This document shows, one piece after another, positions 3,947-8,451 of a stretch of DNA of 11,071 nt (position 1 is its first letter; the number at the start of each line of letters is the position of its first letter). The notes beneath the pieces were generated by a model. It had not been told where the DNA came from and ran no database searches. It was given only the letters and a program-made list of their open reading frames with translations. Position numbers and translations under genes: made by a program. This stretch comes from a virus (taxonomy: Duplodnaviria > Heunggongvirae > Uroviricota > Caudoviricetes): the IMG/VR virus record IMGVR_UViG_2778261676_000005. The stretch is one strand, 5' to 3'.

Positions 3947-4800
3947 GCACCATCCTGAAATGGGCAGGAAATAAAACCGCCATAATGTCCGAACTGAAAA
4001 AGCATCTTCCTGCTGGCCCGCGACTGGTTGAACCTTTCGCGGGTTCCTGTGCAGTGATGATGGAGACGGATTATCCCAGCTATCTTGTTGCGGATATTAA
4101 TCCTGATTTAATCAACCTCTATAAAAAGGTTGCTGCTGATTGTGAGGCGTTTATATCTCGTGCCAGAGCTTTATTTGAGGAAGCAAACAGGGAGGTGGCT
4201 TATTACAACATAAGGCAGGAGTTTAATTACTCCACTGAAATTACTGATTTCATGAAAGCGGTATATTTCCTGTATCTCAATCGTCACGGTTACCGTGGTT
4301 TATGTCGCTATAACAAGAGCGGGAATTTCAACATTCCCTACGGTAATTATAAAAATCCGTATTTCCCTGAAAAAGAAATTCGCGCATTTGCAGAAAAAGC
4401 CCAGCGAGCAACGTTTATCTGCGCCAGCTTTGATGAAACGCTGGCGATGTTGAAGGCGGGGGATGTGGTGTATTGCGATCCGCCGTATGACGGTACGTTT
4501 TCCGGCTATCACACTGATGGTTTCACTGAAGATGACCAGTATCACCTGGCATCCGTTCTTGAACATCGGTCATCAGAAGGACATCCGGTCATTGTTTCTA
4601 ACAGTGACACATCCCTGATCCGTTCGTTGTATCGCAATTTCACCCACCACTACATCAAAGCAAAACGCAGCATCGGTGTGGCAGCTGGCGAGGGTAAATC
4701 AGCAACAGAAATCATTGCTGTTTCCGGGCCGCGCTGCTGGGTGGGATTTGATTATTCGCGTGGCGTGGACAGTTCTGCCGTGTACGGAGTACGTGCATGA
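3943..4800 (+). CDS. dam: DNA adenine methyltransferase, Dam-like (N6-adenine class)
   Basis: N-terminus [11 protein letters not shown] and motif FAGSCAV, plus the catalytic DPPY motif ([11 protein letters not shown]). ATG 3943 follows GGAGG; the longer track ORF from 3883 is an upstream extension. Confidence 0.85.
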
Positions 4801-6359
4801 GTCATGCCGATATGAACAACTGCTGCGGCTTTAACGAGTCTGCCGCAGCATTCTCATGGAACAGCCCGAAAAAGGCCATTAACCCTTATCTGGACCCGGC
4901 GGAAGTTGCGCCGGTTTCTGCGCTTTCAAACCTGATCACTCTGTACGCTGCCGATAACGAGCAGGAACAACTGCGCCGCGAGGCACTGAGTGATCAGGTC
5001 TGGGAGCGTTATTTCTTTAATGAATCCCGTGATCCTGTCCAGCGCGAAATGGAGCAGGATAAGCTAATTAGCCGGGCAAAGCTGGCGCATGAGCAGCAGC
5101 GTTTTAATCCGGACATGGTCATTCTGGCGGATGTCAACGCCCAGCCTTCCCATATCAGCAAGCCGCTGATGCAACGTATTGAATACTTCAGCAGCCTGGG
5201 CAGGCCAAAGGCTTATTCCCGCTATTTACGTGAGACGATTAAGCCATGTCTGGAACGACTGGAGCATGTACGCGACAGTCAGCTATCTGCATCTTTTCGC
5301 TTTATGGCAAGCCATGAAGGGCTGGACGGCCTGCTGATCTTGCCTGAAATGAGTCAGGATCAGGTGAAACGCCTGTCCACCCTGGTAGCTGCGCATATGA
5401 GTATGTGCCTTGATGCAGCTTGTGGTGATTTGTATGCCACCGATGACGTTAAGCCAGAAGAAATCCGCAAGACATGGGAAAGGGTGGCAGCAGAAACCCT
5501 GCGACTGGATGTCATCCCACCTGCGTTTGAGCAACTCCGCCGGAAAAGAAACCGCCGTAAACCCGTGCCCTATGAACTCATTCCGGGTTCGCTGGCGCGT
5601 ATGTTGTGCGCCGACTGGTGGTATCGGAAATTATGGAAGATGCGTTGCGAATGGCGGGAAGAGCAGTTGCGCGCTGTCTGCCTGGTCAGCAAAAAAGCAT
5701 CTCCCTATGTCAGCTATGAAGCTGTGATGCATAAACGTGAGCAGCGCCGTAAGTCGCTGGAGTTTTTTCGTTCTCATGAACTGGTGAACGAAGATGGCGA
5801 CACGCTGGATATGGAAGACGTGGTAAACGCCAGCAGCAGCAACCCTGCGCATCGCCGCAATGAGATGATGGCCTGTGTTAAAGGTCTGGAGCTTATCGCG
5901 GAAATGCGCGGTGACTGCGCCGTTTTCTACACCATCACCTGTCCGTCACGTTTCCATTCCACGCTAAATAACGGCAGGCCCAACCCGACTTGGACAAATG
6001 CGACGGTAAGACAAAGCAGTGATTATCTGGTCGGCATGTTTGCTGCATTTCGTAAGGCGATGTACAAAGCCGGATTGCGCTGGTATGGCGTGCGGGTGGC
6101 TGAGCCGCATCATGACGGTACAGTTCACTGGCACCTGTTGTGTTTTATGCGCAAAAAAGATCGCCGCGCCATTACTGCTTTGTTGCGTAAGTTTGCCATT
6201 CGTGAAGACCGTGAGGAGCTGGGTAATAACACAGGACCACGCTTTAAGTCTGAGCTGATACCGGGGAAGTGCAGGCCGTGGAGCTTGTGGTGCGTGGACG
6301 TCACAAAGAAGTGGATTCCGGCGAGTGGAAGACGGGCGAAAGCAACACCACCAAAGTGA
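4797..6359 (+). pseudogene. A: Replication initiation protein gpA (rolling-circle HUH endonuclease), 3'-truncated
   Basis: Resembles P2 gpA through the HUH motif ([16 protein letters not shown]). The ORF then ends after a short tail that is the out-of-frame reading of the tail-tube-like fragment. At 520 aa it is short of the ~760 aa I recall for P2 gpA. Confidence 0.7.
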
Positions 6360-6490
6360 CCAGTACCAACAGCTACGCGAAGCTGACCATCAATGGTGAG
6401 GTGCTCTATGAACTGGACCTTATCAACATGGTGGAAATTGTGGACGGTGTGGACCTGATGGAAGCGCACCGCAACGCCCTCGGCCTCTGA
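6263..6490 (+). pseudogene. C-terminal fragment of a tail tube (gpFII-like) gene lacking its 5' part
   Basis: Frame-2 translation ..[69 protein letters not shown] resembles tail-tube C-termini and sits directly upstream of E, where FII lies in P2. No plausible start or N-terminal region. Confidence 0.45.
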
Positions 6491-6544
6491 TGTATCTGAA
6501 CGGCGCGGGATACCGCGCCAGAACCCAATTTACAGGACAACAAA

Positions 6545-6847
6545 ATGAGCGATAAGCAGACTGAAAAGACCATTCAACTGGATACCCCCATCATGCGCGG
6601 TAAAACAGAAATTACCGAAATTGTGTTGCGTAAACCGCAGTCTGGTGCGCTGCGCGGCACACGCCTGCAGGCCATTATGGATATGGATGTGAACGCGATG
6701 ATGACCGTGATCCCCCGCATCTCCAGTCCGGCACTGACTGCACAGGAAATCGCAGAGATGGACCCGGCAGATCTCACCGCTATGTCGGTTGAGGTTGTCA
6801 CTTTTTTGTTGAAGAAGTCGGTGCTTGCCGGTTTACCGACAGCCTGA
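6545..6847 (+). CDS. E: Tail assembly chaperone gpE
   Basis: 100-aa protein with gpE-like sequence (TIQLDTPIMRGKTEITEIVLRKPQSGALRG); slippery heptamer TTTTTTG near the 3' end; immediately upstream of the tape-measure start. Confidence 0.75.
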   Translation: MSDKQTEKTIQLDTPIMRGKTEITEIVLRKPQSGALRGTRLQAIMDMDVNAMMTVIPRISSPALTAQEIAEMDPADLTAMSVEVVTFLLKKSVLAGLPTA

Positions 6848-6981
6848 CGGTTGACGATCTGGTGGCAGATATCGCCACCATTTTTCACTGGCCGCCATCC
6901 GTTACTGACGTTATGCCGCTGACCGAAGTGCTGGAATGGCGGTATAAAGCGATTCAGAGATGCGGGGCCAACGATGAGTGA
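6545..6981 (+). CDS. gpE+E' frameshift fusion (programmed -1 frameshift, P2 E/E' and lambda G/GT type)
   Basis: From T TTT TTG at 6802-6808 the -1 frame is open to TGA at 6979-6981, reading ..GACRFTDSLTVDDLVADIATIFHWPPSVTDVMPLTEVLEWRYKAIQRCGANDE. It ends overlapping the T start at 6974, as in P2. Confidence 0.6.
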
Positions 6982-7549
6982 TAACAACCTGCGCCTGCAG
7001 GTCATTCTTAATGCGGTTGACAAACTCACCCGCCCATTCCGTGCTGCACAGGCCAGTTCGAAAGAGCTGGCTGGCGCAATCAGAAACTCCCGTGACGCAT
7101 TAAAGCAACTCAATCAGGCGGGTAACAGCCTGGAAAAATTTCGCAAGCTGCAGGCTGATAACAAGAAGTTAGGCGACAGGCTGAACTATGCCAGACAGAA
7201 GGCTAATTTGCTTAGCTCTGAGCTGGAGGCGATGGAGCAACCATCACAAAGGCATTTTGTGGCTTTAGGTCGGCAAACGCTGGCAGTCCAACGCCTGGAA
7301 GAACAACAAAAATATTTGCAGAAGCAAACGGCGCTTGTGCGTGCTGAACTGTACCGGGCGGGAATTTCTGCGAAAGATGATGCGGGAGCAACTGCCCGTT
7401 TAGCCCGTGAAACATCACGTTATAACCAGGAACTTTCGAAACAGGAGGCGCGGCTGAAGCGACTGGGGGAAGCTCAGCGCAGGATGAATGCAGCGCGTGC
7501 CAGTTACCCGCGAACCCGCGAAGAAAGAAAGCACTACGGTGAAGCGTAA
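6974..7549 (+). pseudogene. T: Tail tape measure protein gpT, N-terminal fragment (~170 aa of an expected ~800)
   Basis: N-terminus MSDNNLRLQVILNAVDKLTRPF with coiled-coil sequence is typical of P2-family tape measure proteins. The ORF ends after 191 aa and overlaps the gpD-fragment frame. Confidence 0.7.
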
Positions 7550-7907
7550 GCGCAGGACTAAGAAGCAGAAGAAAGAGCCGGAAGCGAAGCAGGGCGATTA
7601 CCTGGTGGGGACGGATGAAAACGTGCTGGTACTTAATCGCACTTATGCCAACCGGAGCAACGCCGAACGAGCGGCAAAAATGCAGTGGGAACGCCTGCAA
7701 CGCGGCGTTGCGTCATTCTCGCTACAACTGGCGGAAGGGCGGGCAGATCTCTACACGGAAATGCCAGTGAAAGTCAGTGGCTTTAAACAGCCGATAGATG
7801 ATGCGGAATGGACCATTACGACTCTGACACATACTGTCAGCCCGGATAACGGTTTTACAACCAGTATTGAACTCGAAGTGAAGATTGATGATTTCGAAAT
7901 GGAATGA
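7488..7907 (+). pseudogene. D: Tail protein gpD, C-terminal fragment
   Basis: ..YANRSNAERAAKMQWERLQRGVASFSLQLAEGRADLYTEMPVKVSGFKQPIDDAEWTITTLTHTVSPDNGFTTSIELEVK matches the C-terminal ~120 aa of P2 gpD. No N-terminal two thirds and no gpU gene. Sits directly upstream of ogr as in P2. Confidence 0.8.
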
Positions 7908-7997
7908 TTCTTCGCAATGGAGAACTTTTAAGTTTGCAAAATGGAATAATAAGGTATCATTATTGTGAATTTAGCAAAAATGGGGAGAACTCGAAAA

Positions 7998-8216
7998 ATG
8001 ATGATTTGCCCACTGTGTGGAAGTGCCGCCCATACTCGCAGCAGTTTTCAGGTATCTTCATTGACCAAAGAGCGTTACAACCAGTGCCAGAACATTAACT
8101 GCAGCCATACTTTTGTTACCCATGAAACTTTTGTTCGTTCGATTGCAACGCCAAAAGAGTCAAATCCGGTTCAGCCGCATCCAATGAAATCAGGACAGGT
8201 GGCGCTCTCTCTTTGA
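7998..8216 (+). CDS. ogr: Late gene transcription activator Ogr (zinc finger)
   Basis: MMICPLCGSAAHTRSS...ERYNQCQNINCSHTF...PHPMKSGQ resembles P2 Ogr (Cys4 finger); 72 aa from ATG 7998, as in P2. GGGGAGAA upstream. Confidence 0.9.
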   Translation: MMICPLCGSAAHTRSSFQVSSLTKERYNQCQNINCSHTFVTHETFVRSIATPKESNPVQPHPMKSGQVALSL

Positions 8217-8238: not shown

Positions 8239-8296
8239 TCGTTAAAAAGCAGTGCTTCTAACATCATGATTTTAAAAGGCATAAATTTCAGACAAC

Positions 8297-8339
8297 AAAA
8301 AACCCATCAACCTTGAACCGAAATGGCGGGGTTGATGGG
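8297..8339 (-). terminator. Candidate intrinsic terminator for ybjL (read on the minus strand)
   Basis: Perfect 10-bp arms CCCATCAACC (8303-8312) and GGTTGATGGG (8330-8339), with an inner CCG/CGG pair, followed on the minus strand by a U-run (plus-strand A-run 8297-8302). About 110 nt downstream of the ybjL stop, and the loop is large, so confidence is modest. Confidence 0.35.
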
Positions 8340-8451
8340 CTCCACAAAATGGGGACATCAAAGAAAAGCAGTGGCACTAATTAAGACTGATGCCCTGCGG
8401 AAAAGTTCTGCGGTTGTGCAAAAAAATTTCATTTTCAGGGCAACTTCAGTT

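What the first reader, a model, noticed from the sequence alone, without database searches (positions are those of the whole stretch)
6545..6981. Programmed -1 frameshift module of gpE/E' is intact inside a decayed tail operon
The slippery heptamer T TTT TTG (6802-6808) and an open -1 frame ending 5 nt after the T start are both preserved, although the flanking tail-tube and tape-measure genes are fragments. This may just be recent decay, but it is worth noting that one small tail gene kept its coding and recoding signals.
Basis: partly seen in the sequence, partly recalled or inferred. Interest (0 to 1): 0.4.

Follow-up and report, generated by a model that had tools for sequence, protein, structure and literature searches.

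The report
P2-type tail chaperone frameshift, orphaned
This is the well-known gpE/gpE+E' tail-chaperone gene pair of a P2-like phage, with its programmed -1 ribosomal frameshift signal; it is still intact in an E. coli prophage remnant only because two very recent large deletions happened to miss it, so the finding is real but ordinary.

Summary
E runs 6545-6847. The heptamer T TTT TTG (6802-6808) is in the X XXY YYZ phase of E. The -1 frame is open to TGA 6979-6981 and overlaps the T start (6974) by 8 nt. The predicted 145-aa fusion matches Pfam Phage_TAC_7 and Phage_P2_GpE, and the heptamer aligns on P2's annotated frameshift site.

The module lies on a 1250-bp island (6257-7506) between two deletions: 20.3 kb (gene A into FII) and 3.7 kb (T into D). 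The host element is a P2/186-like prophage at the rybB/ybjL site of E. coli.

Intactness is not remarkable:
- The island has no indels against an intact prophage at the same site.
- It has two private substitutions, and neither is in E/E'.
- Every other surviving gene or fragment is also free of point damage.
- The exact remnant occurs in only three contigs.
- The late promoter and all partner genes are gone.
- Of about 20 other remnant types examined, only two keep E+E' whole.

So this is recent deletion-only decay, not retention by selection.

One side observation is unexplained. Deletion endpoints recur to the nucleotide in independent remnants. This includes both ends of this window's T|D junction and a site inside E' (window 6920).

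The parts
6545..6847 (+). gene E, the tail assembly chaperone (100 aa, zero frame)
   Evidence: ORF. Pfam PF10109 Phage_TAC_7, E = 2.4e-18, 66 bits against a cutoff of 25. 43% identical to P2 gpE. Family-wide pN/pS is 0.04.
6802..6808 (+). slippery heptamer T TTT TTG, the -1 frameshift site
   Evidence: The phase was read from the sequence. It aligns with the P2 heptamer next to the annotated frameshift site. It is present in every related locus examined; one locus has the variant TTTTTTA.
6808..6981 (+). E' extension in the -1 frame (57 codons plus TGA). Fused to E residues 1-88 it gives a 145-aa gpE+E'.
   Evidence: Translation. The fusion hits PF06528 Phage_P2_GpE at 2e-17. By my residue count, about 54% identical to the P2 E' extension and the same 57-codon length. 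pN/pS is 0.24 in the -1 frame.
6791..6794 (+). Shine-Dalgarno-like GAGG, 7 nt upstream of the heptamer; a possible stimulator (inferred only)
   Evidence: P2 has AAGG at the aligned position. Not tested.
6502..6519 (+). GC-rich hairpin (GGCGCGG-GATA-CCGCGCC) in the FII-E spacer
   Evidence: -16.6 kcal/mol, z = -3.7. P2 has a different-sequence hairpin in the same spacer, z = -2.5.
6257..6490 (+). 3' fragment of tail tube gene FII (last 77 codons plus stop)
   Evidence: blastn against the intact prophage. PF04985 positions 95-165 of 165.
6257..6260 (.). Deletion junction 1: gene A joined to FII, about 20.3 kb lost, microhomology GATA
6974..7506 (+). 5' fragment of tape-measure gene T (177 of 1026 codons). 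The ORF runs on out of frame to 7549.
7505..7506 (.). Deletion junction 2: T joined to D, about 3.7 kb lost (rest of T, U and the 5' part of D), microhomology TA
   Evidence: Both endpoints recur in independent remnants.
7505..7907 (+). 3' fragment of gene D (baseplate hub)
   Evidence: PF05954 positions 214-302 of 305. Mapping.
4797..6260 (+). Truncated replication gene A. It is now the gene directly upstream of the island, and its ORF runs out of frame into 'FII up to 6359.
   Evidence: PF05840 at 4e-113. Mapping.
7998..8216 (+). ogr, the late-gene activator; intact, with a promoter-like site at 7933-7960
   Evidence: PF04606 at 5e-22. Promoter scan. P2 has the equivalent arrangement.

Best explanation
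Segment 6545-6981 is the gpE / gpE+E' tail-assembly-chaperone pair of a P2/186-like myovirus.

How it works in a live phage:
- Most ribosomes translate E to its stop at 6845-6847 and make a 100-aa protein.
- A minority slip back one base on U UUU UUG (6802-6808). The tRNA-Phe and tRNA-Leu re-pair on UUU UUU.
- Those ribosomes read 57 more codons and make the 145-aa gpE+E'. Its stop overlaps the start of the tape-measure gene T.
- By analogy with lambda gpG/gpGT, the two proteins in a fixed ratio chaperone the tape measure and recruit tube subunits.

What happened in this window:
- The module is an orphan. One 20.3-kb deletion runs from replication gene A into tube gene FII. A second 3.7-kb deletion runs from T into D.
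- Together they removed the late promoter, sheath, most of tube, most of T, U, half of D and all head and lysis genes.
- E/E' is intact because both deletions missed it and too little time has passed for point mutations. It is not being maintained.

Shown here: sequence identity, frame geometry, homology, deletion map, and the absence of private changes.

Inferred: that frameshifting occurs on this mRNA at all. Any transcription would now have to be read-through from the early operon.
For: Geometry:
- ORF, heptamer phase, the -1 frame and the 8-nt overlap with T.

Homology and conservation:
- Pfam PF10109 on E and PF06528 on the -1 extension, both far above gathering scores.
- The heptamer aligns with P2's, next to the frameshift site annotated in NC_001895.
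- PMC3091744 states that P2 shifts -1 at TTTTTTG to give E (91 aa) and E+E' (142 aa), with no downstream structure.
- 84 of 89 module copies found in the window and related loci share the 88 / 12 / 57-codon geometry and the ATGAGTGA overlap.
- Family-wide pN/pS is 0.04 for E and 0.24 for the -1 frame.

Decay by deletion only:
- The deletion map against the intact SCU-306 prophage at the same site shows the island 6257-7506 at 99.36% identity with 0 gaps.
- Against 60 relatives there are only 2 private substitutions, at 6413 and 7256. Both lie in truncated genes and none lies in E/E'.
- All other surviving genes are called full length, and the fragments are open up to their junctions.

Rarity:
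- The exact remnant is on 3 contigs only.
- None of the best-matching complete E. coli genomes aligned across its junctions.

No retention elsewhere:
- In other remnants at this site E is absent, or E' is cut, in most cases.
Against: - No expression or frameshifting data exist for this locus.
- With only 2 private substitutions on the island, the absence of any in E/E' cannot exclude weak selection. Zero of two falling in 35% of the island has probability about 0.42 by chance.
- Read-through transcription from the early promoter through truncated A is possible and untested.
Confidence: 0.9

Rival explanations
1. E/E' has been kept by selection (domestication). The host, or a satellite or helper interaction, benefits from a free-standing tail chaperone, which would explain why it alone is whole.
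For: E/E' is the only complete tail gene left. Both private substitutions on the island fall outside it.
Against: - Zero of two substitutions is expected by chance (p about 0.42).
- Its clients (T, tube) are destroyed, and its promoter is deleted.
- Only 2 of about 20 other remnant types keep E+E' whole. Most lack E, and five are cut inside E'.
- The remnant is on 3 contigs only.
Confidence: 0.03
2. What survived was set by where breaks occur, not by chance placement or selection. The island's borders lie at recurrent, nucleotide-precise deletion hot spots of P2-like prophages, and E/E' sits between two of them. This complements the main explanation rather than excluding it.
For: - The T-side endpoint of junction 2 (window 7506) is also used in strain AREA_497 with a different partner.
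- The D-side endpoint is used with three different partners: this window, E. coli B, and locus L103.
- A neighbouring D site is used with four partners.
- A site inside E' (window 6920) is used in five events, on either side.
- Flank SNP distances show that the events are independent: 18 of 658 and 10 of 658.
- Microhomology is only 0-5 nt.
Against: - No mechanism was identified. The phage att core, the gpA origin nick site and Chi do not fit.
- The third ATACCCG copy showed no junction in one scan.
- The sample is about 27 junctions, partly found by searching at the hot spots themselves.
- Junction 1 (window 6257-6260) was not seen to recur.
Confidence: 0.6
3. There is no frameshift. The -1 ORF is an independent small gene starting at GTG 6862, as automatic annotation calls it ('GpE family phage tail protein', 39 aa), and the heptamer is incidental.
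For: RefSeq and PGAP annotate a separate 39-aa CDS in relatives. The heptamer by itself is common.
Against: - P2's record annotates E+E' as a joined -1 frameshift product.
- PMC3091744 reports the same for P2.
- The -1 frame opens only 3 codons before the heptamer.
- The stretch 6808-6861, upstream of the GTG, is conserved as protein with P2.
- The heptamer is invariant apart from a still-slippery TTTTTTA.
Confidence: 0.03
4. The longer product arises by transcriptional slippage of RNA polymerase on the T6 run rather than by ribosomal slippage.
For: A homopolymeric T6 run is present.
Against: - From general knowledge, productive transcriptional slippage in bacteria usually needs runs of about 9 or more.
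- The conserved seventh base (G or A, giving a Leu codon that can re-pair) and the strict X XXY YYZ phase are ribosomal signatures.
Confidence: 0.02

Closest known systems
Bacteriophage P2 gpE / gpE+E' (FETUD operon; Christie et al. 2002, J Bacteriol 184:6522, cited through PMC3091744 and PMC5009743)
   Same: - Same gene order: FII, E, E', T.
- Same heptamer TTTTTTG at the aligned position.
- Same 57-codon -1 extension, ending in an overlap with the T start.
- Same Pfam families.
- No downstream stimulatory structure.
   Different: - 43% (E) and about 54% (E') amino-acid identity.
- E is 100 aa here against 91 aa in P2, because the zero-frame tail is 12 codons rather than 6.
- The fusion is 145 aa against 142 aa.
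- Here the operon around it is destroyed and its late promoter is gone.
Lambda gpG / gpGT tail assembly chaperones (Levin 1993; Xu, Hendrix and Duda 2004, 2013, 2014; summarised in PMC5009743)
   Same: - Two proteins from one start by a low-frequency -1 shift.
- Encoded between the major tail/tube gene and the tape-measure gene.
- The inferred role is to coat the tape measure and recruit tube subunits.
   Different: - No detectable sequence relation was tested or expected.
- Lambda slips on G GGA AAG.
- Lambda is a siphovirus, whereas this is a contractile-tail phage.
Intact P2/186-like prophage at the same rybB/ybjL site (E. coli SCU-306, NZ_CP053231.1)
   Same: 99.36% identity without gaps over 6257-7506. 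It has the same att site and the same E/E' module.
   Different: It has all 33 kb of phage genes. The window lacks 24 kb in two blocks.

Membership tests
P2-type gpE / gpE+E' frameshifted tail assembly chaperone | The zero-frame product belongs to the tail assembly chaperone family (Pfam PF10109 Phage_TAC_7) | tested here: met
   E = 2.4e-18, 66.4 bits against a cutoff of 25, covering profile positions 1-78 of 79
P2-type gpE / gpE+E' frameshifted tail assembly chaperone | The -1 frame extension belongs to Pfam PF06528 Phage_P2_GpE | tested here: met
   E = 2e-17, 62.8 bits against a cutoff of 23, covering profile positions 1-37 of 37 on residues 107-143 of the fusion
P2-type gpE / gpE+E' frameshifted tail assembly chaperone | An X XXY YYZ slippery heptamer in phase near the 3' end of E, homologous to the P2 site | tested here: met
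   T TTT TTG at 6802-6808 in phase. It aligns with the P2 heptamer at the annotated site and is conserved in the relatives.
P2-type gpE / gpE+E' frameshifted tail assembly chaperone | Located between the tail tube gene and the tape-measure gene, with the E' stop overlapping the T start | tested here: met
   'FII 6257-6490, E/E' 6545-6981, T' from 6974, with the ATGAGTGA overlap
P2-type gpE / gpE+E' frameshifted tail assembly chaperone | Both products are actually made, in a fixed ratio, by ribosomal slippage | not testable with these tools
   Needs a reporter assay or mass spectrometry. Known for P2 only from the literature.
Functional FETUD tail operon | Complete FI, FII, T, U and D genes, plus an Ogr-dependent late promoter upstream | tested here: not met
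   FI and U are absent, and FII, T and D are truncated. There is no TGT-N12-ACA element anywhere upstream of E in the window.
Domesticated (host-selected) prophage gene | Retained intact across independent remnants while its neighbours decay | tested here: not met
   E+E' is whole in only 2 of about 20 other remnant types. It is absent or cut in the rest.
Domesticated (host-selected) prophage gene | Purifying selection measurable after the element became defective | tested here: inconclusive
   Only 2 private substitutions on the whole island and none in E/E', which is too few to test.

The most novel reading that the evidence does not exclude
The survival of this island, and the recurrent destruction of E' elsewhere, may reflect a site-directed breakage-and-joining process acting on P2-like prophages.

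- Independent remnants reuse the same nucleotides as deletion endpoints with different partners: window 6920 inside E', window 7506 in T, and two sites in D.
- Microhomology at the joins is only 0-5 nt.
- The retained right-hand sides often begin T(G)A|CC(C)G.

This would point to an unrecognised nuclease, nickase or fork-arrest activity that shapes how these prophages decay.
Probability: 0.3. Interest if true: 0.55.

Novelty: already known. Interest (0 to 1): 0.15.

Why it matters
As a recoding element it adds nothing new. The P2 E/E+E' frameshift is a textbook case, and automatic pipelines already annotate both pieces.

Its modest value is as a clean example of how prophages decay in E. coli: by a few large deletions rather than by point mutation. 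A gene that 'kept its signals' in a young remnant therefore carries no functional message.

The by-product may matter more. Remnants at this one chromosomal site form a natural series of independent deletions whose endpoints repeat to the nucleotide. If that is confirmed on an unbiased sample, it would give a handle on the mechanism of illegitimate recombination that grounds prophages.

Tried and rejected
Source of the window:
- An exact scan of the species-representative genome collection for junction 1 found nothing. The source was then located through the T'-'D fusion protein instead.

Recoding signals:
- Rfam at gathering thresholds reports only RybB, and no recoding element.
- Downstream stimulatory structure: the 50 nt after the heptamer fold no better than shuffles (z = -0.98 here, -0.31 in P2). 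The 99-nt fold has z = -1.8. The hairpin plus T-run at 6860-6885 lies 52 nt downstream and is not conserved in P2, so I rejected it as a stimulator.
- Ogr-type late promoter motif near E: none.
- The Christie 2002 paper is not held in the library, so it is cited through secondary sources.

Explanations tried for the deletion hot spots:
- The phage att core AACAAAAAACCCAT is unrelated.
- The gpA origin nick, GCGCCTCG|GAGTCC in P2, lies elsewhere and is unrelated.
- Extended hidden homology between partner sites: none.
- Chi-like octamers lie near several sites, but I judged their orientation wrong for half of them. This was inspection only.
- Invertase crossover-site, integron and IS target consensus sequences, recalled from memory, do not fit.
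- The prediction that the third ATACCCG copy is also an endpoint gave no hit in one scan.
- Three contigs hit by the E' pattern (L105, L108, L109) are unrelated sequences sharing a 20-mer, and L104 is a divergent phage. None of them is a junction.

Full report
**1. What is in the sequence**

An ATG ORF runs from 6545 to 6847 (100 aa) behind an AGGA at 6534-6537.

The run TTTTTTG occupies 6802-6808. Counting from 6545, base 6802 is the third base of a codon. The zero frame therefore reads ACT TTT TTG, and the heptamer is in the X XXY YYZ phase that lets the P-site and A-site tRNAs re-pair one base back.

The -1 frame has a stop at 6790-6792 and is then open to TGA at 6979-6981. The next gene starts at ATG 6974, so the two overlap by the 8 nt ATGAGTGA.

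**2. Identity**

- The zero-frame product matches Pfam PF10109 (Phage_TAC_7, 'tail assembly chaperone proteins E...') at 2.4e-18.
- I built the fusion by switching frames after the TTG codon. It is 145 aa and additionally matches PF06528 (Phage_P2_GpE) at 2e-17 over the whole 37-position profile.
- In the P2 reference record, E+E' is annotated as a joined CDS with a '-1 translational frameshift' site.
- In a nucleotide alignment the P2 heptamer and this one occupy the same columns.
- E is 43% identical to P2 gpE. The -1 extensions are both 57 codons and about 54% identical.
- PMC3091744 summarises the experimental work on P2: the -1 shift occurs at TTTTTTG, giving E (91 aa) and E+E' (142 aa), without a downstream stimulatory structure. 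PMC5009743 gives the lambda G/GT paradigm for what such pairs do.
- Consistent with that, the 50 nt after the heptamer fold no better than shuffled sequence, here or in P2.

Among the 89 module copies found in the window and the related loci held at that point, 84 have exactly the same geometry: 88 codons to the slip, a 12-codon zero-frame tail, a 57-codon extension and the ATGAGTGA overlap. The exceptions are P2 itself, two remnants in which the extension is cut by a deletion, and one copy for which no start codon was found. A further locus, L074, carries the still-slippery TTTTTTA and so was not picked up by the heptamer search.

Across 55 distinct haplotypes, pN/pS is 0.04 for E and 0.24 for the extension read in the -1 frame. 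Both frames are therefore coding in the living phage population.

The heptamer alone would not be significant, with 9 copies in the window against 4.3 expected. The phase, position, homology and conservation are what make it so.

**3. Context**

The window is a P2/186-like prophage remnant in E. coli, between rcdA and the rybB/ybjL locus.

I mapped it on an intact prophage at the same site (strain SCU-306). It is colinear except for two deletions:

- Junction 1 at 6257-6260 joins replication gene A to the last 77 codons of tail tube gene FII. About 20.3 kb is lost: the cargo, portal, terminase, capsid, lysis, baseplate, fibre and sheath genes, and with them all late promoters.
- Junction 2 at 7505/7506 joins codon 177 of tape-measure gene T to the last third of D. 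About 3.7 kb is lost.

Between them lies a 1250-bp island, 6257-7506, containing 'FII, E, E' and T'. Downstream, ogr is intact with its own promoter-like site. No Ogr-type TGT-N12-ACA element lies anywhere upstream of E. Any transcription of E would now have to be read-through from the early operon through truncated A. That last point is an inference.

**4. Is the intactness meaningful?**

It is not, for five reasons.

- The island is 99.36% identical to the intact prophage, with 8 mismatches and no gap.
- Against 60 ungapped relatives, only two bases are private to the window: 6413 (Leu for Val in 'FII) and 7256 (in T'). Neither is in E/E'. E/E' makes up 35% of the island, so zero of two has probability about 0.42 by chance.
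- Every other surviving gene is called full length: int, CI, CII, fil, dam, ogr and others. The truncated A, FII, T and D pieces are open right up to their junctions. The element has decayed only by deletion, so a 437-bp module that both deletions missed is expected to be perfect.
- The exact remnant, traced through its unique T'-'D fusion protein, is on 3 contigs of the large assembly collection, one being NCBI GCA_002518955.1. None of the best-matching complete E. coli genomes aligned across the junctions. That fits a recent event.
About 20 other remnant types of this phage family, most of them at this site, were examined. E+E' is whole in only two of them (AREA_497, W13-16). E is whole but E' is cut in two (ECCWS199, ETEC4068). 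Only the 3' end of E' is left in three (AST205, L106, L107). Both are absent from the rest, including E. coli B. There is no preferential retention.

**5. Mechanism, with status**

- Shown here: the sequence signals for a tandem -1 slip on U UUU UUG, the homology of both reading frames to the P2 proteins, and the canonical position between tube and tape measure.
- Taken from the literature: P2 really makes both products at this heptamer, and such pairs act as tape-measure chaperones.
- Inferred: this copy would still frameshift if it were translated.
- Probably false for this copy: any function, because its clients are gone.

A Shine-Dalgarno-like GAGG lies 7 nt upstream of the heptamer, with AAGG at the same place in P2. 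This is noted as a possible stimulator but was not tested.

**6. What turned up on the way**

I mapped about 27 deletion junctions from 22 remnants onto the intact prophage. The endpoints repeat to within 0-2 nt in remnants whose other endpoint differs.

- Inside E', at the equivalent of window 6920 (GCCGCT|GACCG), the site is a left endpoint twice and a right endpoint three times.
- The T endpoint of this window's junction 2 (window 7506) is reused in AREA_497.
- The D endpoint of junction 2 is shared with E. coli B (partner: the invertase gene) and with L103 (partner: the portal gene).
- A second D site has four different partners.

SNP distances in the shared right flank indicate independent events rather than descent: window against E. 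coli B is 18 of 658, and AREA_497 against the others is 10 of 658. One pair is different. ETEC4068 is identical in that flank to W13-16 (0 of 658) and looks like a nested second deletion of the same lineage.

Partner sites share only 0-5 nt and no hidden homology. The retained right sides often begin T(G)A|CC(C)G. ATACCCG occurs three times on that strand in the 32.7-kb prophage, and two of those copies are the D hot spots.

The att core, the gpA origin nick and Chi do not explain this. A scan at the third ATACCCG copy found no junction.

The sample is small, and part of it was collected by searching at the hot spots themselves. I therefore regard the recurrence as well supported and the motif and mechanism as open.

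**7. Verdict**

The finding is a correct identification of an already known recoding module. Its preservation is explained by very recent, deletion-only decay, so interest is low. The recurrent deletion endpoints, one of them inside the finding's own coordinates, are the only part that might repay further work.

Noticed in passing
window 6920/6921, 7505/7506; loci L002-L005, L090-L103, L106, L107: Deletion endpoints recur to the nucleotide in independent P2-like remnants that have different partner endpoints. The E' site (window 6920) is used in 5 events, the T site (window 7506) in 2, and two D sites have 3 and 4 different partners. Microhomology is only 0-5 nt, and the retained right sides often start T(G)A|CC(C)G. 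The mechanism is unknown.
   Followed up: partly
window 8294-8372 (-) and 8294-8307: The host sRNA gene RybB (Rfam RF00110, 105 bits) lies between ogr and ybjL. The 14-nt att core repeat AACAAAAAACCCAT, shared by attL and attR in L008, coincides with its 3' end. The phage therefore appears to integrate into, and rebuild, the rybB terminator.
   Followed up: partly
window 6502-6519; P2 locus L009 375-430: A stable GC-rich hairpin without a T-run lies in the FII-E spacer (z = -3.7). P2 has a hairpin of different sequence in the same spacer (z = -2.5). It may be a conserved mRNA element that sets the tube-to-chaperone expression ratio.
   Followed up: partly
window 6791-6794: A Shine-Dalgarno-like GAGG lies 7 nt upstream of the slippery heptamer, and P2 has AAGG at the aligned position. 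It could be a frameshift modulator. Not tested.
   Followed up: no
window 6860-6885: A terminator-like hairpin (TGGTGGC...GCCACCA) followed by TTTTT lies inside the E' coding region, 52 nt after the slip site. It is not conserved in P2.
   Followed up: partly
loci L001, L002, L093-L098: Most other remnants at this site keep the variable cargo block next to the portal gene while losing tail and head genes. The cargo includes TIR-domain, AIPR, PIN, P-loop NTPase, TIGR02391 and DUF6236 proteins. This window's remnant has lost that block. A 2026 preprint on P2 defence hot spots (10.64898/2026.02.27.708500) reports defective P2 elements with conserved defence genes.
   Followed up: partly
locus L074 1732-1738: One relative carries TTTTTTA instead of TTTTTTG. 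The change is synonymous (Leu) in the zero frame and Val to Ile in the -1 frame, so it is a natural variant of the slippery site that should still slip.
   Followed up: partly
window 6413 and 7256: The only two substitutions private to the island are both first-codon-position, amino-acid-changing changes in the truncated FII and T fragments. That fits relaxed constraint, but two is too few to test.
   Followed up: yes
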